A DNA stretch of 32,000 nt from Micrococcus luteus NCTC 2665. Its GTDB lineage: Bacteria; Actinomycetota; Actinomycetes; Actinomycetales; Micrococcaceae. The notes under the pieces were generated by a model. It had not been told where the DNA came from. It did not search any database and worked only from the letters and a program-made list of their open reading frames with translations. Shown piece by piece: positions 2,040 to 28,483 of the stretch; position 1 is the first letter of the stretch; every line of letters begins with the position of its first letter. The stretch is from positions 2,310,001 through 2,342,000 of the forward strand of contig NC_012803.1 of the NCBI RefSeq assembly GCF_000023205.1, given 5' to 3'. The position numbers and the translations under genes were made by a program.

Positions 2040-2196
2040 GTCCCGTGGGCAGGGCTTCGTGGGCAGGGCTTCGTGGGCAGGGTTCCGTGGGCAGAACCGG
2101 CGGCGATTCAGGTTCCGTGGGCGGAAGGAGTCACTCTTCTGCCCACGGAACCGGCTGACCCGCCCACGGAACCGGTTGCCCTGCCCACGGAACCCC
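2040..2196. repeat. Array of eight copies of a CGTGGGC(A/G)G core: five forward, three inverted
   Basis: Forward cores start at 2044, 2058, 2072 and 2086 (14-nt period) and at 2116. Inverted cores C(T/C)GCCCACG start at 2139, 2160 and 2181 (exact 21-nt period), each extended to CCCACGGAACC. GGTTCCGTGGGCAG (2081-2094) is the exact reverse complement of CTGCCCACGGAACC (2139-2152 and 2181-2194). The array lies between the 3' end of the FtsX gene and the start of the 1971 gene. Confidence 0.8.
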
Positions 2197-6315: not shown

Positions 6316-8391
6316 TCACCGGGCGTCGTCTCGTGAGGCCGCGCCGTCGTCGTCCTCCCCGCCCTGGAACTGGCTCATGTAGAGCCGGTGGTAGGCGCCC
6401 CTGGCCGCGAGGAGCTCGGCGTGGTTGCCCTGCTCCACGATGTCGCCGTGCTCCATCACGAGGATCACGTCGGCGTCGCGGATGGTGCTGAGCCGGTGGG
6501 CGATCACGAAGCTCGTGCGGTCCGAGCGCAGCGCCGCCATGGCGCCCTGGACCAGCACCTCGGTGCGGGTGTCCACGGAGGAGGTGGCCTCGTCCAGGAT
6601 CAACAGGGAGGGCTGGGCCAGGAACGCGCGGGCGATCGTGATGAGCTGTCGCTCGCCCGCGGACACGTTGGAGGCGTCGTGCTCGATGACGGTGTCGTAG
6701 CCCTCGGGCAGGGTGTGCACGAAGCGGTCCACGAACGTGGCCTTCGCCGCGGCGACGACCTCCTCGTCCGTGGCGTCCTGCCGGCCGTAGCGGATGTTCT
6801 CCCGGATGGTCCCGCCGAAGAGCACGGCGTCCTGGAGCACCATGCCGGTGGCGGCGCGCAGCTCGCCGCGGCTGACCGTGCGGGTGTCCACGCCGTCCAG
6901 CAGGATCCGCCCGCCGTCCACCTCGTAGAACCGCATGATCAGGTTGACCAGGGTGGTCTTGCCGGCACCGGTCGGCCCGACGATCGCGACCGTCTGCCCC
7001 GGCTCCGCCACGAAGTTCAGGTCCGTGATGAGCGGCTTCTCCGGCGTGTAGGAGAAGCGCACATGCTCGAACTCCACGCGACCGCGCAGCGGGCGCGGGA
7101 GGTGGGCGACGACGTCGGGCCCGGAGGCGGCGGAGGGCGCCGTTTCCCGGACGACAGTGCTCTCGGAGGGCGCCGTTTTCCGAACGAAAGTGCGGGCGGG
7201 GGTGCCGTCAGGGGTCTCCTCCGGCTCGTCGAGGAGCTCGAAGATGCGCTCGGCCGACGCCACGCCGGAGATCAGCATGTTGGACATGCCGGCGATCTGC
7301 CCAAGCGGCTGGTTGAACTCGCGCGAGTACTGGATGAACGCGGTCACGGCGCCGAGGGTCATCTGCCCGTTGGCCACGCGCAGGCCGCCGACCACCGCGA
7401 TGCCCACGTAGCCCAGCCAGTTCACCCACTGCATGATCGGCATGATCATCCCCGAGTAGAACTGCGCCTTGAACGCGGCCTCGTACAGCTCCTCGTTGCG
7501 CTCGTCGAAGCGCGCGGCCATGTCCCGCTGACGGCCGAACACGGTCACCAGCTCGTGCCCCGTGAACGACTCCTCGATGTGCCCGTTGAGCCGGCCCGTC
7601 TCCCGCCACTGCGCGGAGAAGAGCGCCTGGGACTTCTTGCCGATCACGCCCACCACCACACCGGCCACCGGCAGGGCGACCAGGGCGATGAGCGCGAGCT
7701 GCCAGGACAGCCAGAACATCATGCCGACGATGCCGATCACGGTCAGCACCGAGTACACGAGCGAGGCGAACGCCTGCTGGAGGGCCTGCTGGACGTTGTC
7801 CACGTCATTGGTGGCGCGGGAGAGCAGGTCGCCGCGCTGCCCGCGGTCGAAGTAACTCAGCGGCAGCCGGTTGATCTTGGCCTCGATCTCCTCGCGGAGG
7901 CGGAAGACGATGCGCATGACGATGTCATTGAGCACGCGGCCCTGCAGCCACATGAACAGCTGGGCCACGAGGTACATGGCCAGCACGATCAGAATCAGCC
8001 GGCCCAGCTCGGTGAAGTCGATCCCCTCACCCGGCGTGAACGCCATGCCGGAGAGCATCTCCGCGGCCCGGTCCTCGCCCTGGGCGCGCAGCCCGTCGAT
8101 GACCTGCTCGCGGCTCAGCCCGCCGGGCATCTGCGCGGAGACCACGCCGCCGAAGATCACGTCCATCGCCCGGCCCAGGACGTGCGGGGCCCACACGTTG
8201 AGCACGACGGCGACCAGCACCATCAGCGCGACCACCACCAGGCCCAGCTTCTCCGTGCGGAACAGGCTCATGAGCCGCTTCGCGGACGGCCAGAACGCCT
8301 TGGCCTTGCGGGCCGGCCCGCCGCCCCAGTCGTCGGTGGCGCCCTGCTCCTGGATCTCGAGGATCTCCTCGTCCGTCAGGTGCTCGCTCAT
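6316..8391 (-). CDS. ABC exporter, fused permease/ATPase (type-I exporter half-transporter, MdlB-like)
   Basis: Six-TM ABC_membrane domain followed by an NBD. Walker A GPTGAGKTTLVNLI, signature VSAGERQLITIARAF, Walker B LLILDEATSSVD. The ATGA start/stop overlap at 8388-8391 couples it to the partner gene. The TMD-NBD linker carries an in-frame repeat insertion (see 7137-7194). Confidence 0.93.
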   Translation of the reverse strand: MSEHLTDEEILEIQEQGATDDWGGGPARKAKAFWPSAKRLMSLFRTEKLGLVVVALMVLVAVVLNVWAPHVLGRAMDVIFGGVVSAQMPGGLSREQVIDGLRAQGEDRAAEMLSGMAFTPGEGIDFTELGRLILIVLAMYLVAQLFMWLQGRVLNDIVMRIVFRLREEIEAKINRLPLSYFDRGQRGDLLSRATNDVDNVQQALQQAFASLVYSVLTVIGIVGMMFWLSWQLALIALVALPVAGVVVGVIGKKSQALFSAQWRETGRLNGHIEESFTGHELVTVFGRQRDMAARFDERNEELYEAAFKAQFYSGMIMPIMQWVNWLGYVGIAVVGGLRVANGQMTLGAVTAFIQYSREFNQPLGQIAGMSNMLISGVASAERIFELLDEPEETPDGTPARTFVRKTAPSESTVVRETAPSAASGPDVVAHLPRPLRGRVEFEHVRFSYTPEKPLITDLNFVAEPGQTVAIVGPTGAGKTTLVNLIMRFYEVDGGRILLDGVDTRTVSRGELRAATGMVLQDAVLFGGTIRENIRYGRQDATDEEVVAAAKATFVDRFVHTLPEGYDTVIEHDASNVSAGERQLITIARAFLAQPSLLILDEATSSVDTRTEVLVQGAMAALRSDRTSFVIAHRLSTIRDADVILVMEHGDIVEQGNHAELLAARGAYHRLYMSQFQGGEDDDGAASRDDAR
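7137..7194. repeat. Family-A repeat doublet (unit about GCGCCGTTTCYCGAACGAAAGCGC), copy A1, inside the ABC exporter CDS
   Basis: GCGCCGTTTCCCGGACGACAGTGCTCTCGGAGG then GCGCCGTTTTCCGAACGAAAGTGCG. Units start at 7137 and 7170, a 33-nt period. On the minus strand this is translated as TFVRKTAPSES/TVVRETAPSAA. Confidence 0.85.
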
Positions 8392-10145
8392 GCCACGTCC
8401 TCCGCGGTCAGCTGGGAGTCCACGATCTCCCGGTAGGTCTGGTTGTCCGCCAGCAGCTCGGCGTGGGTGCCGCGGCCGACCACGCGGCCCTCGTCCAGCA
8501 CGATGATCTGGTCGGCGTCGGTGATGGTGGCCACCCGCTGGGCGACGACGATCCGGGTCACCCCGGCCGCCGCACGGTCGAGCGCCGCCCGCAGCCGCGC
8601 GTCGGTGGTGACGTCCAGGGCGGAGAACGAGTCGTCGAACACGAGGACCCGCGGCTCGGCCACGAGGGCACGCGCGATGGACAGGCGCTGGCGCTGGCCG
8701 CCGGAGACGTCCGTGCCGCCCTGGGACAGCCGCGAGTCCAGACCGGAAGCCGCCGCCTCTCCCTTGCCGGTGGTGCGGGCGCGCACGAAGTCGGCGGCCT
8801 GGGCCGTCTCGAGGGCCGCCCAGATGCGCTCGTCCGAGGCATCCGGGGCCCCGAACTGCATGTTCTCCCGCACGGTGCCCGAGAACAGGTACGGCTTCTG
8901 CGGCACGAGGGCCACGGCCTCGGTCAGCTCGGCCCGGGCCAGGTCGGTCACCGGCACGCCGTCCACGAGCACCTCGCCGGACGTCGCGTCGTACAGCCGC
9001 GGCAGCAGGCTGATCAGCGTGGACTTGCCGGAGCCGGTCGAGCCAATGATCGCCGTCGTGGTGCCGGGTGCGACGGCGAAGCTGACGTCGTCGAGCACCG
9101 GCGCCTCGGCGCCGGGGTACTGGAAGGTGACGTGGCGCAGCTCCACGGCGCCGTCGCGACGCGCGGGGGTCACCGGGCGGACCGGCTCACCGAGCGTGGG
9201 GACGGTGTCCAGGACCTCGCCGATGCGGCGGGCGGAGATCACGGCGCGCGGGAGCATCATCATCATGAAGGTGCCCATCATGACCGCCATGAGGATCTGC
9301 AGCAGGTACTGCATGAACGCGGTGAGCGCGCCGACCTGCACGAGCCCCGCGTCCACGCGCTCGCCGCCGAACCACAGGACGGCGGCGGTGGCGAGGTGGA
9401 GGATCATCGTGATGACCGGGCCGAGCAGCACGAACAGCCGGCCGATCCGCACGGACGTCTCCGTCAGGGCGGCGTTGGCGTCCGTGAACCGGCGCGTCTC
9501 GTGGCGTTCGCGCACGAACGCGCGGACCACGCGGATGCCCTGGATCTGCTCGCGCATCACGCCGTTGACGTCGTCGATGTTGTCCTGCATCCGCTGGAAC
9601 AGCGGCATGAGACGCGCGACGATCCACGCCACGATCACCAGCAGCACCGGCACGGAGACCCACACCAGCCAGGACAGGCCAGGGTCCTCGCGGATGGCCA
9701 TGATGATGCCGCCGACCGCCATGATCGGCACGGCCACCATGAAGTTCAGGGCCATGAGGGTGAGCATCTGGACCTGGTTGACGTCGTTGGTGCCGCGCGT
9801 GATGAGGGTCGCGGCGCCGAAGCGGCCGAGCTCCTCCGCGGAGAACGCGTCCACGCGGGTGTAGACGGCACGGCGCAGGTCCCGGCCGACGCCCATCGAG
9901 ACTTTCGCGCCGAACCACACGGCGGCGATCGCGGCGACCACCTGCACCAGCGCGACGCCGAGCATCACGAGGCCGATGTCCCAGATGCGGGCGGTGTCGC
10001 CGCGGGCCACGCCCTCATCGATGATGCGGGCGTTGAGTCTGGGCAGGTACAGCATGGCCAGCGTGCTGATCAGCTGCAGCACGACGACGGCCGCGACGGC
10101 GCCGCGATAGCGCCGGCCGTAACGGCGGAGCAGGGTCCAGAGCAT
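8388..10145 (-). CDS. ABC exporter, fused permease/ATPase (partner half-transporter, MdlA-like)
   Basis: ORF 8388..10298. The likely start is MLWTLLRRYGRRY at 10145, with GGGAG about 5 nt upstream. Walker A GSTGSGKSTLISLL, signature VSGGQRQRLSIARAL, Walker B VLVFDDSFSALD. Confidence 0.9.
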   Translation of the reverse strand: MLWTLLRRYGRRYRGAVAAVVVLQLISTLAMLYLPRLNARIIDEGVARGDTARIWDIGLVMLGVALVQVVAAIAAVWFGAKVSMGVGRDLRRAVYTRVDAFSAEELGRFGAATLITRGTNDVNQVQMLTLMALNFMVAVPIMAVGGIIMAIREDPGLSWLVWVSVPVLLVIVAWIVARLMPLFQRMQDNIDDVNGVMREQIQGIRVVRAFVRERHETRRFTDANAALTETSVRIGRLFVLLGPVITMILHLATAAVLWFGGERVDAGLVQVGALTAFMQYLLQILMAVMMGTFMMMMLPRAVISARRIGEVLDTVPTLGEPVRPVTPARRDGAVELRHVTFQYPGAEAPVLDDVSFAVAPGTTTAIIGSTGSGKSTLISLLPRLYDATSGEVLVDGVPVTDLARAELTEAVALVPQKPYLFSGTVRENMQFGAPDASDERIWAALETAQAADFVRARTTGKGEAAASGLDSRLSQGGTDVSGGQRQRLSIARALVAEPRVLVFDDSFSALDVTTDARLRAALDRAAAGVTRIVVAQRVATITDADQIIVLDEGRVVGRGTHAELLADNQTYREIVDSQLTAEDVA

Positions 10146-10440
10146 GGGGCTCCCAGGGAGTCGGGATGGGTGCGCGACCGCGTGGGCCGCAGTGCGATGG
10201 GCCGAAGGGGGGCCGGGTTCATTGTGCCCCAGCCGCGGGCGGGGAGGCCCGGGGAGCATCGGTCGTCGATGTGACGGCGCCCGGCCGTTGTGGGGCACCG
10301 CCCCCTCAGCGGGTGGGCGGGATCGTGCTCATCTCGGGCCCCTCGACGGTGAACCCGGCGCCGCGCGTCGTCGTCGGACGCCCCGGGCGCACCCCGGACA
10401 ACCGGCTGCCGAACCACCTGCTGGCGGACCCGCACGAGGA

Positions 10441-10549
10441 CTGAGCGACGCCAGACGGGGGCGTGAGCCAGATGTTTCCGCTGCTGAGGGTCCCTCAGAA
10501 CAGCATGAACATCCGGCTCACGCCCCCGGAACGTCTGGCTCAGCGCCCG
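10441..10549. repeat. Family-B composite palindromic element, copy B1
   Basis: CTGAGCGACGCCAGACG GGGGGCGTGAGCCAGATGTTTCCGCTGCTGAGGG TCCCTCAGAACAGCATGAACATCCGGCTCACGCCCCC GGAACGTCTGGCTCAGCGCCCG. It forms nested inverted repeats. The left ~45 nt and the right ~22 nt are near-identical to parts of the 14193-14346 copies. Confidence 0.8.
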
Positions 10550-11092: not shown

Positions 11093-11108
11093 ATACCCCC
11101 GGGGGTGT
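11093..11108. promoter_or_regulatory. CsoR/CstR-type operator-like palindrome upstream of the regulator gene
   Basis: ATACCCCCGGGGGTGT is a G/C-tract inverted repeat with AT-rich ends. It is the same pattern as the two sites at 14091-14142. Confidence 0.5.
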
Positions 11109-11146
11109 GGGCGACGGCGGCGGGCGGTCACGCGGGGTCACGGAGT

Positions 11147-11204
11147 GCGCCGTTTCTCGAACGAAAACGCTCCGGGAGGCGCCGTTTCGTCAACGAAAGC
11201 GGCG
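11147..11204. repeat. Family-A repeat doublet, copy A2 (intergenic, between TauE and the regulator)
   Basis: GCGCCGTTTCTCGAACGAAAACGCTCCGGGAG then GCGCCGTTTCGTCAACGAAAGCGGCG. Units start at 11147 and 11179, a 32-nt period, which is not a multiple of 3. Confidence 0.85.
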
Positions 11205-11218
11205 GGGTGGGGCGGGGG

Positions 11219-11989
11219 TCAGGCGAGCAGGGACGCCCCCTCGACGGTCAGGACTGCCACGCCCATGACGAGGACGAACCAGCCGAAGGCCTGGCGCAGT
11301 GTCGCCGCGGGCACGCGCTGCATGAGCGCCACGCCCGCCAGCGCGCCCGCCACGGACACCCCGGTCAGTGCGAGCAGGAACGGCCAGTCCGGCTCGACCG
11401 CGGGCAGCTTGCCCACGAACCCGGCCAGCGTCTGCACGGTGATCACCAGCAGCGAGGTGCCCATGGCCGCCGCCATCGGCAGCCCGGCCAGCAGCACGAG
11501 CGCGGGGACGATCAGGAACCCTCCCCCGGCGCCCACCAGGCCGGTCACCAGCCCGACGCCGAGACCCACCACCAGCAGCCGACCCACGCGGAGGCGTGGG
11601 GCGTCGTCGCCGGTGGGGCCGCCGTCGTCGTCCCCCGTGCGGCCGCGGATCATGCCGCGGGCGGTGAGCAGCATCATCACGGCGAAGCCCCCCATGAGCA
11701 CCGGCCCGGGCAACGCCGAGCCGAGCAGGCCGCCCAGCACCGCCCCCACCACGCCGCCGGCCGCGAACAGCCCGCCGGTGCGCCAGCGGACGTTGCCGGC
11801 GCGAGCGTGCAGGGCCACCGCGACGAGCGAAGTGACCCCGACGGCGAACAGGGAGCCCGCGATCGCCTCCTGCGGATCGAGCCAGGCCACATAGGTCAGC
11901 AGCGGCACCATGAGGATGGACCCGCCGCCGCCCAGCAGGCCGAGCAGCAGCCCGACCGCGGCGGCCAGGAGGAGCGCGAGCCAGCCCAT
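11219..11989 (-). CDS. TauE/SafE-family sulfite/organosulfur anion exporter
   Basis: ORF 11219..12103. The likely start is MGWLALLLAAAVGLLLGLLGGGGSILMVPLL at 11989, 2 nt after the upstream stop. Multi-TM protein with the two Gly-rich TauE signatures (GGGGSILMVP and GAGGGFLIVPAL). Confidence 0.88.
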   Translation of the reverse strand: MGWLALLLAAAVGLLLGLLGGGGSILMVPLLTYVAWLDPQEAIAGSLFAVGVTSLVAVALHARAGNVRWRTGGLFAAGGVVGAVLGGLLGSALPGPVLMGGFAVMMLLTARGMIRGRTGDDDGGPTGDDAPRLRVGRLLVVGLGVGLVTGLVGAGGGFLIVPALVLLAGLPMAAAMGTSLLVITVQTLAGFVGKLPAVEPDWPFLLALTGVSVAGALAGVALMQRVPAATLRQAFGWFVLVMGVAVLTVEGASLLA

Positions 11990-14192: not shown

Positions 14193-14346
14193 GGGAGACG
14201 TCGCCAGGGGGCGTGAGCCAGATGATTCCGCTGCGGATCGGGCGTCAGAACTGCAGAAACGTCTGGCTCACGCGGCGGGGGGCGTGAGCCAGACGTTTCT
14301 GCTGCGGATCGGGCGTCAGAACCGCAGAAACGTCTGGCTCAGCGCC
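14193..14346. repeat. Family-B palindromic elements, tandem copies B2 and B3 (71-nt period)
   Basis: The unit is GGGGCGTGAGCCAGAYGWTTCYGCTGCGGATCGGGCGTCAGAACYGCAGAAACGTCTGGCTCASCGC, with CGTGAGCC at 14212 and 14283. In copy B3, GAGCCAGACGTTTCTGC pairs with GCAGAAACGTCTGGCTC, a perfect 17-bp stem. The repeats lie between the stop of the PLD gene (14355) and the operators, so they probably act as a terminator/insulator. Confidence 0.85.
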
Positions 14347-17361: not shown

Positions 17362-18573
17362 GTGCAGTGCCCCCACTTCGACGTCGGCGAGTGCCGTTCC
17401 TGCCCGCTGATGGGCGTGCCGTACGCCCGGCAGCTCGCGGACAAGCAGGCCGCGGTCCAGGCCGCGCTGGCGGACGCGGTCGATGCGGACACGGTCGTGG
17501 CCGAGCCGTTCGCCTCCGCGGAGGCGGGGTTCCGGAACAAGGCGAAGCTCGTGGTGACGGGGTCGGCGGCGGCGCCGCGGCTGGGCATCCTGGACCCGCG
17601 GCAGCACCCCCGCCATCACGACGGCGCCGGCGTGGACCTGCGCGACTGCGGCCTGTACGAGGCCGGCATGGAGGGCGTGTTCGAGGCGTGCGCGGCGGCG
17701 GTGACGGCGGCCGGGCTGGAGCCCTACGACGTCGCCGCCCGCACGGGCGAGCTGAAGAACGTGATCGTGACGCTCTCCCCCGACCGGGAGGCGATGGTCC
17801 GGTTCGTGCTGCGCTCAGCCGACCGGCTGGACGCGCTGCGCGCGGCGGTGCCGGGGCTGCTGGACGACCTCGCGGCGCGCGGGACACCCGCGGCCGTGGT
17901 GAGCGCGAACCTGCTGCCGGAGCACGTGGCCCTGCCCGAGGGCGACAAGGAGATCGTGCTCGCCGGCGGGCCGACGCTGACCATGCGGCTCAACGGGGTG
18001 GGCCTGCGGCTGCGCCCGCAGGGGTTCTTCCAGACGAACACCGCGGTGACCGAGGGGCTGTACGCGACGGCGGCGGCGTGGGTCGCCGAGGCCGGCCTGC
18101 CGGCGACGGCGTGGGACCTGTACTGCGGGGTGGGCGGGTTCGCGTTCCACCTGGCCCGGGCCGGCGTGCGGGACGTGTGGGGCATGGAGTCCTCCGCCGA
18201 GGCGGTGGCCGCGGCCCGGGAGACGGCCGCGGAGCTCGGCCTGGCCGACCGGGCGCGCTTCTCCGCCGGCGACGCCACCTCCGCGCTTTCGTTCGGGAAA
18301 CGGCGGGCTCCGGAGGCGCTTTCGTTCGAGAAACGGCGGGCCCGCCCGGACGCCGTCGTCGTGAATCCGCCGCGGCGGGGCATCGGCGCCGAACTGGCCG
18401 ACGCGCTGGAGGACTCGGGCGTGCCCACCGTCCTGTACTCCAGCTGCAACCCGGCGACGCTCGCGCAGGACCTGGCCCGGATGCCGAGCTATCGGGTGGC
18501 GCGGGTGCAGGTGTTCGACATGTTCCCGCAGACCCGGCACGCGGAGGTGCTCACGCTGCTGACCCGGCGGTGA
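17362..18573 (+). CDS. rlmC: 23S rRNA (uracil-C5)-methyltransferase, RlmC (RumB)-like, with [4Fe-4S] Cys motif
   Basis: The N-terminus MQCPHFDVGECRSCPLMGVPYARQLADKQ mirrors the E. coli RlmC N-terminus as I recall it (MQCALYDAGRCRSCQW...). SAM motif I DLYCGVGGFAFHLA, motif IV VVVNPPRRGIG, catalytic-Cys region LYSSCNPATLAQD. GTG start. An in-frame repeat insertion lies between motifs (18283-18338). Confidence 0.8.
   Translation: MQCPHFDVGECRSCPLMGVPYARQLADKQAAVQAALADAVDADTVVAEPFASAEAGFRNKAKLVVTGSAAAPRLGILDPRQHPRHHDGAGVDLRDCGLYEAGMEGVFEACAAAVTAAGLEPYDVAARTGELKNVIVTLSPDREAMVRFVLRSADRLDALRAAVPGLLDDLAARGTPAAVVSANLLPEHVALPEGDKEIVLAGGPTLTMRLNGVGLRLRPQGFFQTNTAVTEGLYATAAAWVAEAGLPATAWDLYCGVGGFAFHLARAGVRDVWGMESSAEAVAAARETAAELGLADRARFSAGDATSALSFGKRRAPEALSFEKRRARPDAVVVNPPRRGIGAELADALEDSGVPTVLYSSCNPATLAQDLARMPSYRVARVQVFDMFPQTRHAEVLTLLTRR
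18283..18338. repeat. Family-A repeat doublet, copy A3, inverted orientation, inside the rlmC-like CDS
   Basis: GCGCTTTCGTTCGGGAAACGGCGGGCTCCGGAG then GCGCTTTCGTTCGAGAAACGGCG. Units start at 18283 and 18316, a 33-nt period. It is translated as ALSFGKRRAPE/ALSFEKRRARP. Confidence 0.85.
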
Positions 18574-22898: not shown

Positions 22899-22968
22899 CT
22901 TTCGCTCGAGAAATCGTCGCTACCATCCCGAAATCCTGGGATGGTAGCGACGATTTCCCGAGCGAAAG
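22899..22968. repeat. 70-bp near-perfect palindrome built from two head-to-head family-A-like units (copy A4)
   Basis: The left arm CTTTCGCTCGAGAAATCGTCGCTACCATCCC (22899-22929) pairs with the right arm GGGATGGTAGCGACGATTTCCCGAGCGAAAG (22938-22968). There is 1 mismatch in 31 bp and an 8-nt loop. It lies 55 nt after the GH65 stop, so it is a plausible terminator, and it directly abuts the IS110 insertion. Confidence 0.85.
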
Positions 22969-22983
22969 CGCGTCTGGGGGGTG

Positions 22984-24480
22984 CCTCTATGGTTTTCTTC
23001 AAGCCGCGAGAGCGACTGATGATGGTGCTGGCGGGGCGGTCGGATCTTGATACAGGGTGCCATCGCGGAGCATCGCGTAGAGCACGTCCGTGCGGCGCCG
23101 GGCCAGCGCGATCAGCGCCTGGTTGTGGCGTTTGCCCTGGGCTCGTTTGCGGTCGTAGTACGCCCTGGAAGGCGGGTGTGACAGCGAAGCGAACGCTGAG
23201 AGGAACAGGGCCCGCTTCAGTCGCTTGTTCCCGCCCCGGGCTACGTGCTCTCCGCGGATCGAGGTCCCGGAGCGTCGGGTGACCGGGGCGATCCCGGCGT
23301 AGGAGGCCAGATGCCCGGCATCGACGAAGTCCTTGCCCACAACTTCAGTGAGGATGCGTGCGGCGGTCCTGATCCCTACTCCGGGCATCGAGATCAGGAC
23401 CGGGTGAAGAGGGTGGGCCTCCACTGCAGCCTCCACCTGGGAGGCCAGGCCGGCCCGCTGACGGGTCAGGCCGGCGAGCTGTTCTGCCAGGATCGGGACC
23501 ACGGTGGCCGCGGCCTGCGTGCCGGCCACGACCACGGACTGCTCGTCCAGGGCTTGGAAGATCTGTTCCGTGAGAGAAGCGGCCAGGCGTGGGGCGTGCT
23601 TGCGCAGCCTGGCCCGCACATGCCCCGGCCCAGCCGTTCTGAGCTGTGCCGGGGTGGGGTAGCGGCCGAGAAGGTCTGCCACGGCGGGGTGGGTGATCCT
23701 GGGCCCGAGCACGCGCTCGAGCGCGGGGTGGATCTGGGTGAGGAGTCCGCGCAGCCCGTTCGAGGTCGCGGTGATCTGCGCGGCGAGGTCGTCATCGAAC
23801 CCGGCGAGCATGGCCAGCTCGGCGATCTGTTCCTCATCGACTCGGATGGAGCGCAGCGTATGGGGCATCGTGCGGGCTGCTTCAGCGATGATCGCCGCGT
23901 CCTTGGCGTCGGTCTTGGCCGAGCCGGGGTGCAGGTCAGCGATCCGTCGCATCGCCAGCCCGGGCAGGTACGCCACCTCAACGCCGTCGCAGGCCTGGGC
24001 CACGGCCACGGGCAGGGCGCCGATCGTGGCCGGTTGATCGACGACGAGCAGCGCGGGCCCGTGGGCGCGGGCGAGCTCGTCGAGGATGCCGCGTAGGCGG
24101 GTCTCGTCGTTGGGCAGGGCCTTGTCGTAGACCTTTTTCCCGGCCGCGGTGAGGGCCACGGCGTGGTGCTCGGCCTTGCCGACGTCAAGGCCGATGAACA
24201 CGGCCGGGTGCTGCTGTGCTGTCATGATCGTTCCCTTCTGGTGCGCCGGTGGCGTGTGCTGGCCGGCCGGGAGGTGATCACGCTCGGCATCCACGTTACG
24301 AAGGCCCTTGTCAGCCGGGTCCTGCCTCTATCAGCGATCCGTGACCACCGGACCGGTCCTGGGTGACAACACCCCCCGGATCATGGATGACTGGGGGCAA
24401 ACGATCATGCCCAGGACCGGCCGGTCAGCACTCCCTGATCCTGCCGGATCCAGGAGCCACGAAGAAGGTAACGGGGTATG
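22984..24480 (-). mobile_element. IS110-family insertion sequence (~1.5 kb, no terminal inverted repeats)
   Basis: It contains the DEDD transposase gene plus a ~255-nt 5' non-coding leader (24226-24480) and a ~15-nt 3' tail. It is bracketed by the imperfect direct repeat AGCGCGTCTGGGGGGTG (22967-22983) / AGCGCGTCTGGGGGGGTG (24481-24498). GC is lower than the flanks. The boundaries are inferred from that repeat and are uncertain by several nt. Confidence 0.75.
22999..24225 (-). CDS. IS110-family transposase (DEDD/RuvC-like N-domain plus C-terminal Tnp domain)
   Basis: ORF 22999..24294. The likely start is MTAQQHPAVFIGLDVGKAEHH at 24225, with AAGGGA upstream. Motifs: GLDVGK, VVVDQP, TDAKDAAIIAEAAR, and C-terminal MPGVGIRTAARILTEVG..FASYAGIAPVTRRSGTS..GGNKRLKRALF. 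Confidence 0.92.
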   Translation of the reverse strand: MTAQQHPAVFIGLDVGKAEHHAVALTAAGKKVYDKALPNDETRLRGILDELARAHGPALLVVDQPATIGALPVAVAQACDGVEVAYLPGLAMRRIADLHPGSAKTDAKDAAIIAEAARTMPHTLRSIRVDEEQIAELAMLAGFDDDLAAQITATSNGLRGLLTQIHPALERVLGPRITHPAVADLLGRYPTPAQLRTAGPGHVRARLRKHAPRLAASLTEQIFQALDEQSVVVAGTQAAATVVPILAEQLAGLTRQRAGLASQVEAAVEAHPLHPVLISMPGVGIRTAARILTEVVGKDFVDAGHLASYAGIAPVTRRSGTSIRGEHVARGGNKRLKRALFLSAFASLSHPPSRAYYDRKRAQGKRHNQALIALARRRTDVLYAMLRDGTLYQDPTAPPAPSSVALAA

Positions 24481-26815: not shown

Positions 26816-27603
26816 CGCCCTTCCGCGTACGCACCGGAGAGCATTCATGTGCCCGGTATCGAGACATTTCACACCGATTGCCTGCCCCTCTCGAGGTGCA
26901 TTGAATTGTTCCCTCGGATCCCCTTCCGCGCCCCGAGCGCCAGGGCCTCCGGCCGGCGCGACCCGGGGGGACGGCCTGCCCGCCTCGACCCGGAGGACGG
27001 CCTGCCGGCATCCCCTCCACGGCCCCGGAAAGACGGACCGCCGACGGCCCCCGGAGCGCGGCGGCCAGTGGCCGGCCGGCGGACGGCTCGGAGCAGGTCA
27101 GCGCAGGCCGGCGCGGATCGCCGTCGATCGCCACGCGCGCCCCGGACGGCCACCGGCCACGGCCCCGGGAGCGCGTCATCCCGCGCCCCAGGGGCGTCCG
27201 GATCGCCTCGGATCGGCCCCGCAGCGGCGATGACGGCAACCGAGCCACTCCAGCCGTCCATCAAAGGTCGGGGCGGCGGCGCCCTGCCCTAGACCCACGA
27301 CGGCGGGCCCGGCACCTGAGTCGACCGGAGACGCCCACTTTGATCTCCTCACGGAGCCGCCTCAATGCGGACGGACATTCCACCTCATGGCGGTGTTTCC
27401 ACCCCTTGTCCGAGCGGGAGTATTGAGACATCGCAAGGGCGGAAAACACCTCCGGAGCGAAGGACAAGAAGTCACCACGACTCACCTGGAGAACGACTCC
27501 CGAGAGGAACAGACCCCTCTGGACCGGAGAGCCAGGACCCGCACACCACCCCTAGGGCGTGTTGCTAAAGGGTTCGGGGACGTGGATGCGCGAGTCTGGG
27601 GTC

Positions 27604-27993
27604 ATGTCGCGTGATGTCATCTCGGACGAGGTCTGGGCCGTGATCGGCCCACTGTTCCCCGAAGCCAAGACCACCGGGCGTCCGCCCGTGGATCGGCGCG
27701 CGGTGGTCGAGGCCACCGCGTGGCGCTTCCGCACCGGGGCGCCGTGGCGGGATCTGCCCGAGCGGTTCGGGAACTGGAACACGATCTACAAGAACTTCAA
27801 CCGGTGGGCCGCCCAGGGCGTGTGGGAGCGGGTGCTGGAGAAGACCCAGTCCATGGCACAGCAGGCTGGCGAGCTGGACTGGGTGGCCTCGATCGATTCC
27901 ACGATCGTGCGCGTCCACCAGCACGGGGCGACCCTGCCCCGCCCCACAGGGGGCCTGGATGAACTACAAGAAATCCGGGGACGAGCCGGCTGA
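27604..27993 (+). CDS. IS5-family transposase, N-terminal ORF (orfA)
   Basis: MSRDVISDEVWAVIGPLFPEAKTTGRPPVDRRAVVEATAWRFRTGAPWRDLPERFGNWNTIYKNFNRWAAQGVWERV matches the classical DUF4096/IS5 N-terminal domain. The ATG at 27604 lies within ORF 27559..27993. Confidence 0.9.
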   Translation: MSRDVISDEVWAVIGPLFPEAKTTGRPPVDRRAVVEATAWRFRTGAPWRDLPERFGNWNTIYKNFNRWAAQGVWERVLEKTQSMAQQAGELDWVASIDSTIVRVHQHGATLPRPTGGLDELQEIRGRAG

Positions 27994-28483
27994 TCATGCC
28001 ATCGGACGCTCCCGCGGCGGTCTGACGACGAAGAATCATCTGGTCTGTGATGGCAAGGGCCGGGTGCTGGCGTTCGTGGTGACCGGCGGGCAGGTCGCGG
28101 ACACCTCGATGCTGGCCACCACGCTGGAGCAGATCAGCGTTGCCGGGGCCCGTGGGCGGCCCCGGATACGGCCTGACCGCCTGATTGCGGACAAGGGCTA
28201 CCCCTCGAAGGCGAACCGGGCTTGGCTGCGCCGGCATGGCATCGCGGCCACGATCCCCGAGCGGGCCGATCAGATCGCGCACCGGCGCCGCCGCCCAGGA
28301 AGACCGATCGACTTCGGTGAAGACCAGCGCCAGCGCTACCGGGGACGCAATGTCGTGGAGCGGTGCTTCAACCGGCTCAAACAGTGGCGAGGGATCGCGA
28401 TGCGTTCGGACAAGTACGCCCGGAACTATCACGCCGGGCTCAGCCTCGCAGCGACACTGCACTGGCTGACTACCCTACTTTAG
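27959..28483 (+). CDS. IS5-family transposase, DDE catalytic ORF (orfB), in the +1 frame relative to orfA
   Basis: ..DHAIGRSRGGLTTKNHLVCDGKGRVLAFVVTGGQVADTS...LIADKGYPSKANRAWLRRHGI...YRGRNVVERCFNRLKQWRGIAMRSDK is the DDE_Tnp_1 pattern. It overlaps orfA by 35 nt. Joining the ORFs needs a +1 (or -2) shift near CAAGAAATCCGGGG. I cannot tell whether this is programmed or a disabling mutation. Confidence 0.85.
   Translation: MNYKKSGDEPADHAIGRSRGGLTTKNHLVCDGKGRVLAFVVTGGQVADTSMLATTLEQISVAGARGRPRIRPDRLIADKGYPSKANRAWLRRHGIAATIPERADQIAHRRRRPGRPIDFGEDQRQRYRGRNVVERCFNRLKQWRGIAMRSDKYARNYHAGLSLAATLHWLTTLL

What the first reader, a model, noticed from the sequence alone, without database searches (positions are those of the whole stretch)
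18283..18338. Short hairpin repeat family (GCGCTTTCGTTCGAGAAACGGCG) occurs as tandem doublets both between genes and in frame inside genes; 33-nt period in coding copies, 32 nt in the intergenic copy
Doublets of one ~24-nt unit occur at four places:
- 7137-7194, inside the ABC exporter;
- 11147-11204, intergenic;
- 18283-18338, inside the rlmC-like gene, in opposite orientation;
- a head-to-head variant at 22899-22968.

Unit-to-unit spacing is exactly 33 nt (11 codons) in both coding copies and 32 nt in the intergenic copy.

In rlmC the doublet encodes ALSFGKRRAPE-ALSFEKRRARP, between the SAM-binding region and the VVVNPPRRG motif. The same repeat strand is the sense strand in both genes, but it is read in different frames (TFVRKTAP vs ALSFGKRR). 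By my reading the consensus unit has no stop codon in any of its six frames.

The unit can fold as GCGC(CG)TTTC-loop-GAAAGCGC. This looks like a REP/MITE-like element that can colonise coding loops.
Basis: seen in the sequence. Interest (0 to 1): 0.75.

Follow-up and report, generated by a model that had tools for sequence, protein, structure and literature searches.

The report
Micrococcus gene-end repeat invading genes
A short repeated DNA element specific to the skin and soil bacterium Micrococcus sits in small tandem arrays just after the ends of genes, and in at least three genes it has slipped in-frame into flexible protein loops, where its copy number differs between strains.

Summary
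The window is Micrococcus luteus and holds six copies of a 23-nt core as three tandem doublets. Two have a 33-nt period, inside an RlmC-like methyltransferase and an ABC exporter. One has a 32-nt period, after the TauE stop codon. The "head-to-head variant" belongs to a related palindromic sub-family.

In 869 kb of Micrococcus-like metagenome contigs I found 366 units at about 36 distinct loci, spaced only 32 or 33 nt apart. Copy number differs between samples at 11 of the 36 loci.

Most arrays start 1-20 nt after a TGA stop codon, point the same way as that gene, and follow a C-rich leader. Convergent gene pairs carry palindromic composites.

Coding copies are true insertions. Many M. luteus strains have an exact empty site in the ABC exporter, with no target duplication. 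The methyltransferase carries 1-4 units only in Micrococcus. M. lylae has six antisense units in the same ABC linker. A CopA-type ATPase is a third host. All four coding arrays have a 33-nt period.

The single unit is not a significant hairpin, and the absence of stop codons is unremarkable.

Best reading: a new, genus-restricted REP/MIRU-like gene-end element, with RPE-like in-frame colonisation of loops. Its function and mode of spread remain inferred.

The parts
18283..18305 (+). Unit 1 of the in-frame doublet in the RlmC-like methyltransferase (GCGCTTTCGTTCGGGAAACGGCG)
   Evidence: HMM E 4.8e-9
18316..18338 (+). Unit 2 of the same doublet, 33 nt after unit 1. The whole repeat-derived segment is 18283-18345 (aa 308-328, ALSFGKRRAPEALSFEKRRAR).
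   Evidence: Homologues carry 1-4 units in Micrococcus only. The segment is a low-pLDDT loop in the AF2 model.
17362..18573 (+). Host gene 1: 23S rRNA (uracil-C5)-methyltransferase-like protein of the TrmA/RumA family, 403 aa
   Evidence: Pfam PF05958. Sources name the homologues RlmC. Best PDB match is 5xj1, RlmCD.
7117..7203 (-). 87-nt in-frame insert in the ABC exporter relative to the empty allele. On the minus strand it reads: C-rich leader ACCCCCGCCCGC, then unit (7171-7193), spacer, unit (7138-7160), then C-rich trailer. It encodes aa 397-425, TPARTFVRKTAPSESTVVRETAPSAASGP.
   Evidence: The empty site is in L252 and a one-unit allele in L253.
6316..8391 (-). Host gene 2: ABC exporter with fused membrane and ATPase domains, 691 aa. 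The insert lies in the inter-domain linker.
   Evidence: Pfam PF00664 at aa 53-362 and PF00005 at aa 456-604
11148..11202 (-). Intergenic doublet with a 32-nt period: a TTGACG-type unit at 11180-11202 and a standard unit at 11148-11170
11203..11218 (-). C-rich leader (CCCCCGCCCCACCCCG on the minus strand) between the TauE stop codon (11219-11221) and the first unit
   Evidence: Leaders are array-associated in general.
22899..22971 (.). Palindromic element of the related sub-family, with arms CGCTTTCGCTCGRGAAATCGTCGCTACCATCCC. It lies between the GH65-family gene and a 70-aa gene. It is present with or without the neighbouring IS.
   Evidence: Sister copies are at L255:16725-16808 and 18079-18160.
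22982..24473 (-). Context only: an IS110-family insertion sequence (transposase 22999-24294) inserted in the G-run about 10 bp from the hairpin. It is not part of the repeat family.
   Evidence: Pfam PF01548 and PF02371. Empty site in L003.

Best explanation
This is a Micrococcus-specific family of short interspersed repeats.

**Anatomy.** The module is a roughly 20-nt, nearly invariant core (CTTTCGTTCGGGAAACGGCG) plus a variable 12- or 13-nt spacer, giving a 32- or 33-nt period. A C-rich leader precedes it.

**Placement.** Modules sit in head-to-tail arrays of 1-6 copies directly after the stop codon of a gene and in that gene's orientation. Between convergent genes, two such arrays face each other and form long palindromes. 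A sister sub-family exists only in the palindromic form.

**Shown.**
- Arrays gain and lose whole modules between strains. The pattern fits replication slippage, but slippage itself is inferred.
- New loci are seeded without any target-site duplication.
- Seeding occasionally lands inside genes.
- The coding arrays that survive are in frame, use the 33-nt (11-codon) module, and lie where a floppy peptide is likely tolerated. Those places are an inter-domain linker of an ABC exporter, a loop of the Rossmann fold of an rRNA methyltransferase, and just after the DKTGT motif of a copper ATPase. There they behave as in-frame variable-number repeats.

**Inferred function.** The elements are probably transcribed as the first part of the 3' untranslated region. 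They probably act on the RNA or on transcription there. One possibility is 3'-end formation, with a C-rich, Rho-loading-like leader followed by a pause or structure element. Another is protection of the upstream message, as REP/BIME elements do in enterobacteria.

**Inferred spread.** The mechanism is unknown. A copy-and-paste or template-switch event primed by C-rich microhomology fits the one clean junction.

**Confidence.** About 0.9 for the descriptive part and about 0.35 for the functional and mechanistic part. The single figure given is a blend of the two.
For: **Family is real, and all confirmed copies are in Micrococcus.**
- Units are far above chance.
- The window's methyltransferase is encoded, residue for residue, on LS483396.1, a 2.50-Mb record of GCA_900475555.1. 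I take the organism to be Micrococcus luteus from the database names of the homologous proteins and from my own knowledge of that record, not from a title shown.
- 366 units occur in 869 kb of contigs with about 74% G+C. Same-strand spacings are only 32 nt (127 cases), 33 nt (46) or 31 nt (1).
- Copies occur in M. antarcticus and M. lacusdianchii loci.
- No unit occurs in 21 kb of syntenic Citricoccus DNA. None occurs in PLSDB plasmids. No Rfam family matches.

**Gene-end polarity.**
- 51 of 73 flank-distinct runs have a co-oriented, coding-like ORF ending within 70 nt upstream, most often 10-15 nt away. Only 3 have just a convergent gene end.
- 11 of 17 gene ends followed by a unit have CCCC within 8 nt of the stop codon, against 19 of 221 gene ends without a unit.
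- Leader C-over-G skew is +0.39 to +0.55. Spacer skew is 0.03.
- The TauE stop codon is at the same codon in a strain that lacks the array. The stop codon is therefore native and the element abuts it.

**Variable copy number.** 11 of 36 distinct loci differ in copy number between samples, and arrays reach 6 units.

**Insertion into genes.**
- ABC exporter: the empty allele reads ...GACGGC|GACGTC.... One-unit (54-nt) and two-unit (87-nt) alleles exist within M. luteus, with at most 1 nt of junction ambiguity.
- M. lylae carries 6 antisense 33-nt units (TAERDGFPNES) in the same linker.
- The methyltransferase has 1-4 units in Micrococcus species and none in Citricoccus, Cellulomonas, Oerskovia or Curtobacterium.
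- A CopA-like ATPase carries AFVAETGASRSAFVDETAP just after the DKTGT motif.
- All four coding arrays have a 33-nt period, against 8 of 26 intergenic loci.
- The AF2 model places the methyltransferase insert in a loop with pLDDT 50-65.

**The core resists decay.** In a distant Micrococcus whose methyltransferase is 63% identical, the core is still GCA CTT TCG TTC GGG AAA in three units. It keeps the rare codons CTT and AAA, while the spacer half has diverged.
Against: - No expression, 3'-end or binding data exist, so the RNA or termination role rests only on position and orientation.
- Unit hairpins are weak and show no covariation, which argues against a classical stem-loop terminator or exonuclease block for the tandem form.
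- Leaders of tandem arrays are short (1-20 nt), far shorter than a typical Rho-loading site.
- The M. lylae coding array is antisense, so orientation with transcription is not obligatory.
- The metagenome sample was selected by an exact 19-mer and is redundant across strains. Counts are therefore biased, and no true per-genome census was possible.
- No mobilising enzyme was identified.
Confidence: 0.55

Rival explanations
1. The elements are sites on double-stranded DNA for a sequence-specific protein, such as a nucleoid protein, a gyrase-like enzyme or a regulator. In this reading the invariant 20-bp core, with its TTTC-N6-GAAA near-palindrome, is a binding site. The 32-33-bp spacing, about three helical turns, puts successive sites on one face of the helix.
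For: - The whole core, including the would-be loop, is almost invariant, and there is no covariation. That pattern fits recognition of sequence better than recognition of RNA structure.
- The spacing is fixed at 32 or 33 bp.
- The core is conserved at synonymous positions in coding arrays of distant species.
- From my own knowledge, not tested here: E. coli BIMEs at operon ends bind IHF and gyrase.
Against: - A protein binding double-stranded DNA does not explain why arrays point the same way as the upstream gene.
- It does not explain why a C-rich leader lies on the sense strand only.
- No candidate protein is known.
- The core matches none of the actinobacterial operator motifs I could recall. 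That is memory only, not a test.
Confidence: 0.2
2. The elements are purely selfish or neutral DNA with no host function. An unidentified recombinase or transposase, or template switching during replication or repair, copies the module to new sites. Gene ends and protein loops are simply the places where insertions are tolerated in a compact 2.5-Mb genome.
For: - Presence or absence differs between strains and species at several loci.
- The same ABC linker was colonised independently in opposite orientations.
- Units decay toward G+C in some lineages, for example ALSSGKREASD in M. endophyticus and the CTGTCGTCC variants.
- Junctions lack a target duplication.
Against: - Tolerance alone does not explain why the leader abuts the stop codon within a few bases.
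- It does not explain the near-absolute co-orientation with the upstream gene in intergenic copies.
- It does not explain retention of rare codons in the core across species.
Confidence: 0.25
3. The coding copies are ancestral peptide repeats of the proteins, and their resemblance to intergenic DNA is coincidental or secondary.
For: 11-residue repeats are present in the methyltransferase of most Micrococcus species.
Against: - The coding units are 0-4 mismatches from the intergenic consensus at nucleotide level.
- The same DNA is read in three different frames or strands: ALSFGKRR, AFVRETA and GFPNES.
- Exact empty alleles exist within M. luteus.
- The segment is absent from all non-Micrococcus homologues.
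Confidence: 0.02
4. The elements are classical MITEs or REPINs, mobilised in trans by an IS transposase or by a REP-associated tyrosine transposase (RAYT).
For: - Palindromic composites and the hairpin sub-family look like REPINs.
- An IS110-family element sits 10 bp from one hairpin. From my own knowledge, IS110-family elements often sit next to REPs.
Against: - The commonest form is a direct tandem array, not an inverted pair.
- There is no target-site duplication.
- Orientation follows the local gene, including opposite orientations within 11 kb. A mechanism biased to the lagging strand by a single-strand transposase would not give this.
- The hairpin is present in the IS-free allele.
- No transposase related to the window's IS110 occurs near arrays in 869 kb.
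- The unit does not end in the GTAG or CGTC tags of RAYT-type REPs, as read from the sequence. RAYT genes could not be searched genome-wide.
Confidence: 0.08

Closest known systems
REP / BIME elements of enterobacteria, and REPINs of Pseudomonas
   Same: - Short (20-40 nt), high-copy, lineage-specific repeats.
- They lie in the transcribed 3' regions of genes, often within about 15 nt of the stop codon.
- They combine into mosaics of direct and inverted copies that form long hairpins between convergent genes.
- IS110-family insertions are often found next to them.
   Different: - The dominant form here is a head-to-tail array with a strict 32/33-nt period.
- The single unit is not a stable palindrome (z about -0.4).
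- There is a C-rich leader.
- There is no GTAG or CGTC tag, and no RAYT was identified.
- Copies occur in frame inside genes.
MIRU (mycobacterial interspersed repetitive units)
   Same: - They occur in actinobacteria.
- They are direct tandem repeats at dispersed loci, oriented like the flanking genes.
- Copy number varies between strains (VNTR behaviour).
   Different: - MIRU units are about 46-101 bp and lie between genes of operons, with small ORFs overlapping the neighbouring stop and start codons (my recollection of the family description).
- Here the period is 32/33 nt.
- Arrays abut stop codons without overlapping start codons.
- Palindromic composites exist.
- Arrays occur within ORFs.
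RPE (Rickettsia palindromic elements) and similar in-frame MITEs, e.g. in Coxiella
   Same: - A selfish-looking repeat is inserted in frame into protein-coding genes.
- It adds a peptide segment at structurally tolerant sites, in different reading frames in different hosts.
   Different: - RPEs are about 100-150-bp palindromes inserted as single copies.
- Here the inserted module is 33 nt and tandemly variable.
- The same family is mainly a gene-end element.
TRIT-type repeated terminator motif reported for Mycobacterium tuberculosis
   Same: A conserved, repeated sequence motif enriched just downstream of genes in a high-G+C actinobacterium, proposed to act in 3'-end formation. This description is from my recollection only.
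   Different: - No sequence relation was tested.
- The present tandem units lack a strong stem.
- No termination data exist for them.
Genic tandem repeats of Borg elements (PMC9879509)
   Same: Perfect tandem nucleotide repeats occur both between and inside genes.
   Different: - Borg repeats arise locally and independently at each site. They are not one dispersed family with a shared core.
- They occur in a different domain of life.
- I read only the introduction of this paper. My recollection that its genic repeat units are multiples of three and create disordered regions was not checked there.

Membership tests
REP/BIME | The unit is an imperfect palindrome that forms a stable stem-loop | tested here: not met
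   - The unit has an MFE of -6.0 kcal/mol (sense) and -3.9 kcal/mol (antisense), with z -0.4 and -0.15.
- Direct doublets give z -1.5 to +0.7.
- There are no compensatory pairs in 150 variants.
- Only inverted composites and the hairpin sub-family fold strongly (z -8.6 and -12).
REP/BIME | Many dispersed copies lie outside genes, in transcribed 3' regions | tested here: met
   - About 36 distinct loci were found in a biased 869-kb sample.
- 51 of 73 runs lie within 70 nt after a co-oriented stop codon.
- Six elements lie in 41 kb of one genome.
- No whole-genome count was possible.
REPIN-RAYT | Conserved GTAG/CGTC end tag and an associated Y1 (RAYT) transposase gene | tested here: inconclusive
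   - No such tag lies at the unit ends, as read from the sequence.
- The presence of a RAYT gene in the genome could not be tested, because only about 41 kb of the genome was available.
MITE | Terminal inverted repeats and a target-site duplication | tested here: not met
   - At the ABC exporter filled/empty site the junction ambiguity is at most 1 nt, so there is no duplication.
- Tandem arrays have no terminal inverted repeats.
MIRU | Dispersed direct tandem repeats, co-oriented with genes, variable in number between strains | tested here: met
MIRU | Unit of about 46-101 bp with short ORFs overlapping the flanking stop and start codons | tested here: not met
   - The period is 32/33 nt.
- The stop-codon contexts are cTGA, with no ATGA or GTGA overlap.
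RPE-like in-frame elements | Insertion inside ORFs that preserves the reading frame, in more than one frame, at tolerant sites | tested here: met
   - Three host proteins are known.
- Three reading frames or strands are used.
- An empty allele exists.
- The insert lies in a low-pLDDT loop.
RPE-like in-frame elements | A single palindromic element of about 100-150 bp | tested here: not met
   Inserts are 33-nt modules in 1-6 tandem copies.
CRISPR array | Repeats of about 28-37 nt separated by unique spacers of similar length, with a leader and cas genes | tested here: not met
   - The total period is only 32/33 nt, with 12-13-nt spacers that are near-identical within an array.
- Arrays have 1-6 units and lie at dozens of loci.

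The most novel reading that the evidence does not exclude
The core plus its C-rich leader may be a portable gene-end module that is placed immediately after stop codons by a transcription- or translation-coupled process. That process could be sequence-guided, involving an RNA or a dedicated recombinase not yet recognised. The core would then be read by a Micrococcus-specific factor. The same machinery would occasionally write 11-codon modules into proteins, giving a built-in way to generate length-variable disordered linkers.
Probability: 0.1. Interest if true: 0.85.

Novelty: new member of a known kind. Interest (0 to 1): 0.55.

Why it matters
- It adds an undescribed, genus-specific repeat family to the small set known from actinobacteria. 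It also gives a clean bacterial case outside Rickettsia and Coxiella of a non-coding repeat writing peptide segments into conserved enzymes.
- Within one species there are empty, one-copy and two-copy alleles, so the step from intergenic DNA to protein sequence can be studied directly.
- Two features are not explained by the usual REP or MITE models: the strict placement after stop codons behind a C-rich leader, and the fixed 32/33-nt period. Together they point to an untested link with transcription termination in a very high-G+C genome whose Rho factor is unusual.
- Practically, the arrays are ready-made VNTR markers for typing Micrococcus strains. They also break short-read assemblies, and they flagged Micrococcus contamination in two unrelated genome assemblies.

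Tried and rejected
- **Genome-collection scan** with TTTCGTTCGNNAAACGGCG. It was useless for a census or for taxonomic range. Only the Micrococcus loci and the contaminant scaffolds were informative.
- **Protein search with a concatemer** of the six-frame translations of the module, meant to list all proteins that carry it. It gave one hit. The matches are too short for the E-value scale of that database.
- **Rfam searches.** At gathering thresholds on the window, and at E<=1 on a six-unit array, nothing meaningful appeared.
- **Plasmid collection.** No match.
- **Viral contigs.** Two single hits in contigs of 57-60% G+C, consistent with chance.
- **Link to the neighbouring IS110 element.** Rejected as causal. 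The hairpin exists in the IS-free allele, and neither a related transposase nor the IS ends occur in the 869-kb sample.
- **Clean empty site for the intergenic doublet.** The TauE-CsoR spacer is too diverged between strains.
- **Within-locus diversity of core versus spacer versus flank**. Not used as evidence, because loci were ascertained by an exact core match and flanks contain indels.
- **Recalled operator and promoter motifs** (LexA box, ECF sigma -35/-10, GlnR and PhoP boxes). None fits by eye. These are memory-based comparisons only.
- **Literature.** Five full-text searches, including the core sequence itself, and two M. luteus comparative-genomics papers gave no description of the family. 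The 2010 genome paper was not found under the PMC id I recalled, which may be wrong.
Full report
**Source and gene context**

The window has 72.8% G+C. Its 403-aa methyltransferase is encoded, residue for residue, on LS483396.1, a 2.50-Mb record of GCA_900475555.1, and on many other assemblies. I take the organism to be Micrococcus luteus. The basis is the database names of the homologous proteins and my own knowledge of that record.

Pfam scans and the called genes of the matching contigs give the layout:
- two ABC exporters (6316-8391 and 8388-10298, minus strand);
- a CsoR-like repressor;
- a TauE/rhodanese/persulfide-dioxygenase cluster;
- a TrmA/RumA-family methyltransferase (17362-18573, plus strand);
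- a GH65-family gene;
- an IS110-family transposase (22999-24294, minus strand).

**The observation**

A mismatch search and a unit HMM find exactly six units, as three doublets:

| Units | Strand | Period | Location |
|---|---|---|---|
| 7138-7160 and 7171-7193 | - | 33 nt | in frame in the ABC exporter |
| 11148-11170 and 11180-11202 | - | 32 nt | intergenic, after TauE |
| 18283-18305 and 18316-18338 | + | 33 nt | in frame in the methyltransferase |

Shuffles of the window give no match at all. The doublet encodes ALSFGKRRAPE-ALSFEKRRAR at aa 308-328 of the methyltransferase, and TFVRKTAPSESTVVRETAP in the ABC exporter. The repeat strand is the sense strand in both genes.

The fourth site, 22899-22971, is a near-perfect hairpin with 33-nt arms (-66 kcal/mol, z -12). 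Its arms resemble the unit only over the first ~17 nt (E 0.03 and 1.5).

Nine kilobases beyond the window in the same genome there are two more elements of this palindromic type: CCCCGCTTTCGCTCGGGAAATCGTCGCTACC, a loop, then the reverse complement. Each follows a pyrimidine-rich tract of 30-40 nt. The fourth site is therefore a member of a sister sub-family, not a rearranged doublet.

**What does not hold**

- *Hairpin.* The single unit folds weakly (-6.0 and -3.9 kcal/mol for the two strands), no better than shuffles. The direct doublets are no better either.
- *Covariation.* Among 150 distinct unit variants, every departure from pairing in three candidate stem registers is one-sided. None is compensated.
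- *Stop codons.* The unit is free of stop codons in six frames. So are 46% of all 33-mers in this window, and about 19% of those with similar A+T content.

**Wider sampling**

It still returned copies from:
- M. luteus MAW843;
- M. antarcticus;
- M. lacusdianchii;
- a Micrococcus MAG;
- tiny scaffolds of assemblies labelled Carideicomes alvinocaridis and Streptomyces sp. NPDC052101.

The tiny scaffolds are identical or nearly identical to Micrococcus loci, so they are contaminants.

The metagenome scan with the exact 19-mer returned 119 contigs (869 kb, median G+C 73.7%). These contigs hold 366 units. Same-strand neighbours are 32 nt apart (127 cases), 33 nt apart (46) or 31 nt apart (1), and no other spacing occurs.

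After removing redundancy, about 36 distinct direct-array loci remain:
- 18 with a 32-nt period;
- 10 with a 33-nt period;
- 1 with a 31-nt period;
- 7 with single units only;
- 11 of the 36 with different copy numbers in different samples;
- arrays of up to six units.

All eight intergenic 33-nt arrays share a GCGTGTCRC-type spacer. The coding arrays, and the window's intergenic doublet, share a CCTCC(G)GAG-type spacer.

**Architecture and polarity**

Printing all distinct arrays shows a recurring layout: stop codon TGA, a C-rich leader such as CCCCCGCCCG, then the units. Between convergent genes, two such arrays face each other. These composites follow patterns such as two forward then two reverse units, with inner gaps of 27-104 nt. 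They fold into very stable hairpins (L020).

The numbers:
- 51 of 73 flank-distinct runs have a co-oriented, coding-like ORF ending within 70 nt upstream, most often 10-15 nt away. Only three have just a convergent gene end.
- Of 238 distinct gene ends in the sample, 17 are followed by a unit within 40 nt, and all 17 end in TGA.
- 11 of those 17 have CCCC within 8 nt of the stop. Only 19 of the 221 gene ends without a unit do.
- Leaders are strongly C-skewed (+0.39 to +0.55). Spacers are not (0.03).

In the window the units follow their genes even though gene orientation changes within 11 kb (minus, minus, plus). The polarity is therefore with transcription, not with replication. The TauE stop codon lies at the same codon in a relative that lacks the array. 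The element abuts a native stop codon rather than supplying one.

**Coding copies are insertions**

*Methyltransferase.* Homologues aligned show that the segment between GDAT and PDxVVVNPPRRG holds the following.

| Number of 11-residue units | Proteins |
|---|---|
| 1 | P0003 |
| 2 | window, P0004, P0006 |
| 3 | M. yunnanensis P0002, P0014, M. endophyticus P0016 and P0033 |
| 4 | P0032 |
| 0 | Citricoccus, Cellulomonas, Oerskovia, Curtobacterium, Auritidibacter |

An AlphaFold2 model has mean pLDDT 89. It places residues 308-328 between strands 298-302 and 331-334, with pLDDT 50-65. The best solved relative, RlmCD (5xj1), aligns with gaps inside this stretch.

*ABC exporter.* Homologues are all from Micrococcus and range from 662 to 761 aa. 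Many M. luteus strains have the 662-aa form, which lacks the segment. The DNA of three alleles shows:
- an exact empty site, ...ACC CCC GAC GGC | GAC GTC GTC...;
- a 54-nt one-unit insert;
- the window's 87-nt two-unit insert (7117-7203).

The junction ambiguity is at most 1 nt, so there is no target-site duplication. The insert begins with a C-rich leader (ACCCCCGCCGGC) that is 11/12 identical to the 12 nt just upstream. It ends in a C-rich trailer. M. lacusdianchii has the same uninterrupted junction as the empty M. luteus allele, so I take the empty state to be ancestral.

M. lylae carries two to six 33-nt units in the same linker, but in the opposite orientation. There GGT TTC CCG AAC GAA AGC is read as GFPNES. 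That is an independent colonisation.

*Copper ATPase.* A third host appeared in the metagenome sample. A CopA-like P-type ATPase carries AFVAETGASRS-AFVDETAP just after the DKTGT motif, with a 33-nt period.

All four coding arrays have the 33-nt period, against 8 of 26 intergenic loci. The one-sided Fisher probability is 495/27405, about 0.018, from the counts. A period divisible by three is also what allows copy-number change without a frameshift.

**Conservation of the core**

A distant Micrococcus (HMSC067E09) has a methyltransferase only 63% identical. Its three full units still read GCA CTT TCG TTC GGG AAA. They keep the A/T-ending codons CTT and AAA in a genome with about 95% G+C at third positions. 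The spacer half has diverged, with 10 of 15 positions identical. Six M. lylae units keep GCTTTCGTTCGGGAAAC. In neither species were intergenic units found in the 14-21 kb fetched.

In M. endophyticus the peptide has drifted to ALSSGKREASD. The core is thus retained in some lineages and decays in others. A within-locus diversity comparison is confounded by how the loci were ascertained, and I do not rely on it.

**What it most likely is and does**

*Shown.* This is a dispersed, Micrococcus-restricted (as far as sampled) family of 32/33-nt modules. The modules are polar with genes, abut stop codons behind a C-rich leader, and vary in copy number. They seed new sites without a target duplication, including tolerant in-frame sites in proteins.

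*Inferred.*
- Strand-specific placement in the first bases of the 3' untranslated region argues for a role, or at least a constraint, at the level of the transcript or of transcription. The two obvious candidates are 3'-end formation and message protection.
- Arrays grow and shrink by slippage.
- The C-rich match at the ABC exporter junction suggests microhomology-primed copying from another locus.

I rate the descriptive part at about 0.9 and the functional and mechanistic part at about 0.35.

*Rivals.* A double-stranded DNA-binding site fits the invariance of the core and the three-turn spacing, but not the polarity. A purely selfish element fits the turnover, but not the abutment to stop codons. 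A classical MITE or REPIN-RAYT system does not fit the tandem form, the missing duplication, or an orientation that follows the local gene. The ancestral-peptide idea is excluded.

**Comparison with known families**

The family combines three sets of traits:
- REP/BIME: gene-end location, mosaics, hairpins between convergent genes;
- MIRU: actinobacterial, direct tandem arrays, gene-oriented, variable in number;
- RPE: in-frame insertion into proteins.

It fails a defining feature of each:
- REP/BIME: the unit has no stable palindrome;
- MIRU: the unit is much shorter than the MIRU range;
- RPE: it is not a single long palindrome;
- MITE: it has no terminal repeats and no target duplication.

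No Rfam family matches. The searchable literature, including a search for the core sequence itself, does not describe it. The original M. luteus genome paper was not found under the PMC id I recalled. I file it as a new member of the known kind "short interspersed gene-end repeats", with unusual features that deserve a genome-wide census and 3'-end mapping.

**Limits**

- No whole genome could be scanned.
- Density is a rough extrapolation. Six elements in about 41 kb of one genome suggests a few hundred per genome.
- The metagenome sample is biased and redundant.
- The taxonomic range beyond Micrococcus is not excluded.
- There are no expression data.

Noticed in passing
window 22982-24473 (transposase 22999-24294, minus strand): An IS110-family insertion sequence is present in some M. 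luteus strains and absent from others; L003 and L249 have the empty site. It is inserted in a G-run, GCGCGTCTGGGGGG|GGTATGAGCG, about 10 bp from the palindromic element. About 180 nt of non-coding DNA lies upstream of the transposase (24295-24473). In this IS family such a region can encode a guide (bridge) RNA, but I did not examine it.
   Followed up: partly
L002:15638-21212 compared with L001: In one strain (GCA_002088075.1) the DNA beyond the IS110 copy is a cytochrome bc1/oxidase cluster, not the genes seen in the window. This suggests an IS-mediated rearrangement.
   Followed up: no
window 14207-14341; partial copy 10457-10484: A 71-nt tandem repeat (1.9 copies, 93% identical) contains an internal inverted repeat, GTGAGCCAGACG...CGTCTGGCTCAC. 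It lies between the persulfide-dioxygenase-like and phospholipase-D-like genes. A 28-nt fragment recurs 3.7 kb away. This is a second, unrelated small repeat family.
   Followed up: partly
window 11094-11109: A palindrome, ATACCCCCGGGGGTGT, lies upstream of the CsoR-like repressor gene. It resembles a CsoR/CstR-type operator. It sits in a cluster of TauE, rhodanese and beta-lactamase-fold/rhodanese genes that looks like a sulfide-stress (cst-like) operon.
   Followed up: no
L014, L042, L044, L047, L120 (SRJI02 scaffolds); L103 (NZ_JBFAWH010000112.1); P0121: Scaffolds of 350-2200 bp in assemblies labelled Carideicomes alvinocaridis / Aquicoccus sp. SCR17 and Streptomyces sp. NPDC052101 are Micrococcus sequence, with the same loci and about 72-76% G+C. 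They are likely contamination. Several of them end inside repeat arrays.
   Followed up: partly
window 7192-7215 (minus strand); homologues P0122, P0124: Next to the ABC exporter insert, a 12-nt motif encoding TP(D/A)(G/R) is present in 2-3 tandem copies, but only in alleles that carry the repeat units. The first copy is the original flank.
   Followed up: partly
L255:16690-16728 and 18040-18082 (same genome, right of the window): Pyrimidine tracts of 30-40 nt made almost only of C and T (e.g. CCCTCCCCGTCCCCTCCCCCTTCCCCATCCCCCTCCCC) precede the palindromic elements. On the other strand these are strong G-quadruplex-type motifs.
   Followed up: no
window 27586-28483: An IS5/IS427-like element with two overlapping ORFs (DUF4096, then DDE_Tnp_1) is a second insertion sequence in the window.
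   Followed up: no
window 2044-2094 and 2141-2194: Two short tandem repeats were reported by Tandem Repeats Finder: a 14-nt unit (3.6 copies, 94% identical) and a 21-nt unit (2.6 copies, 90% identical). I did not examine them.
   Followed up: no
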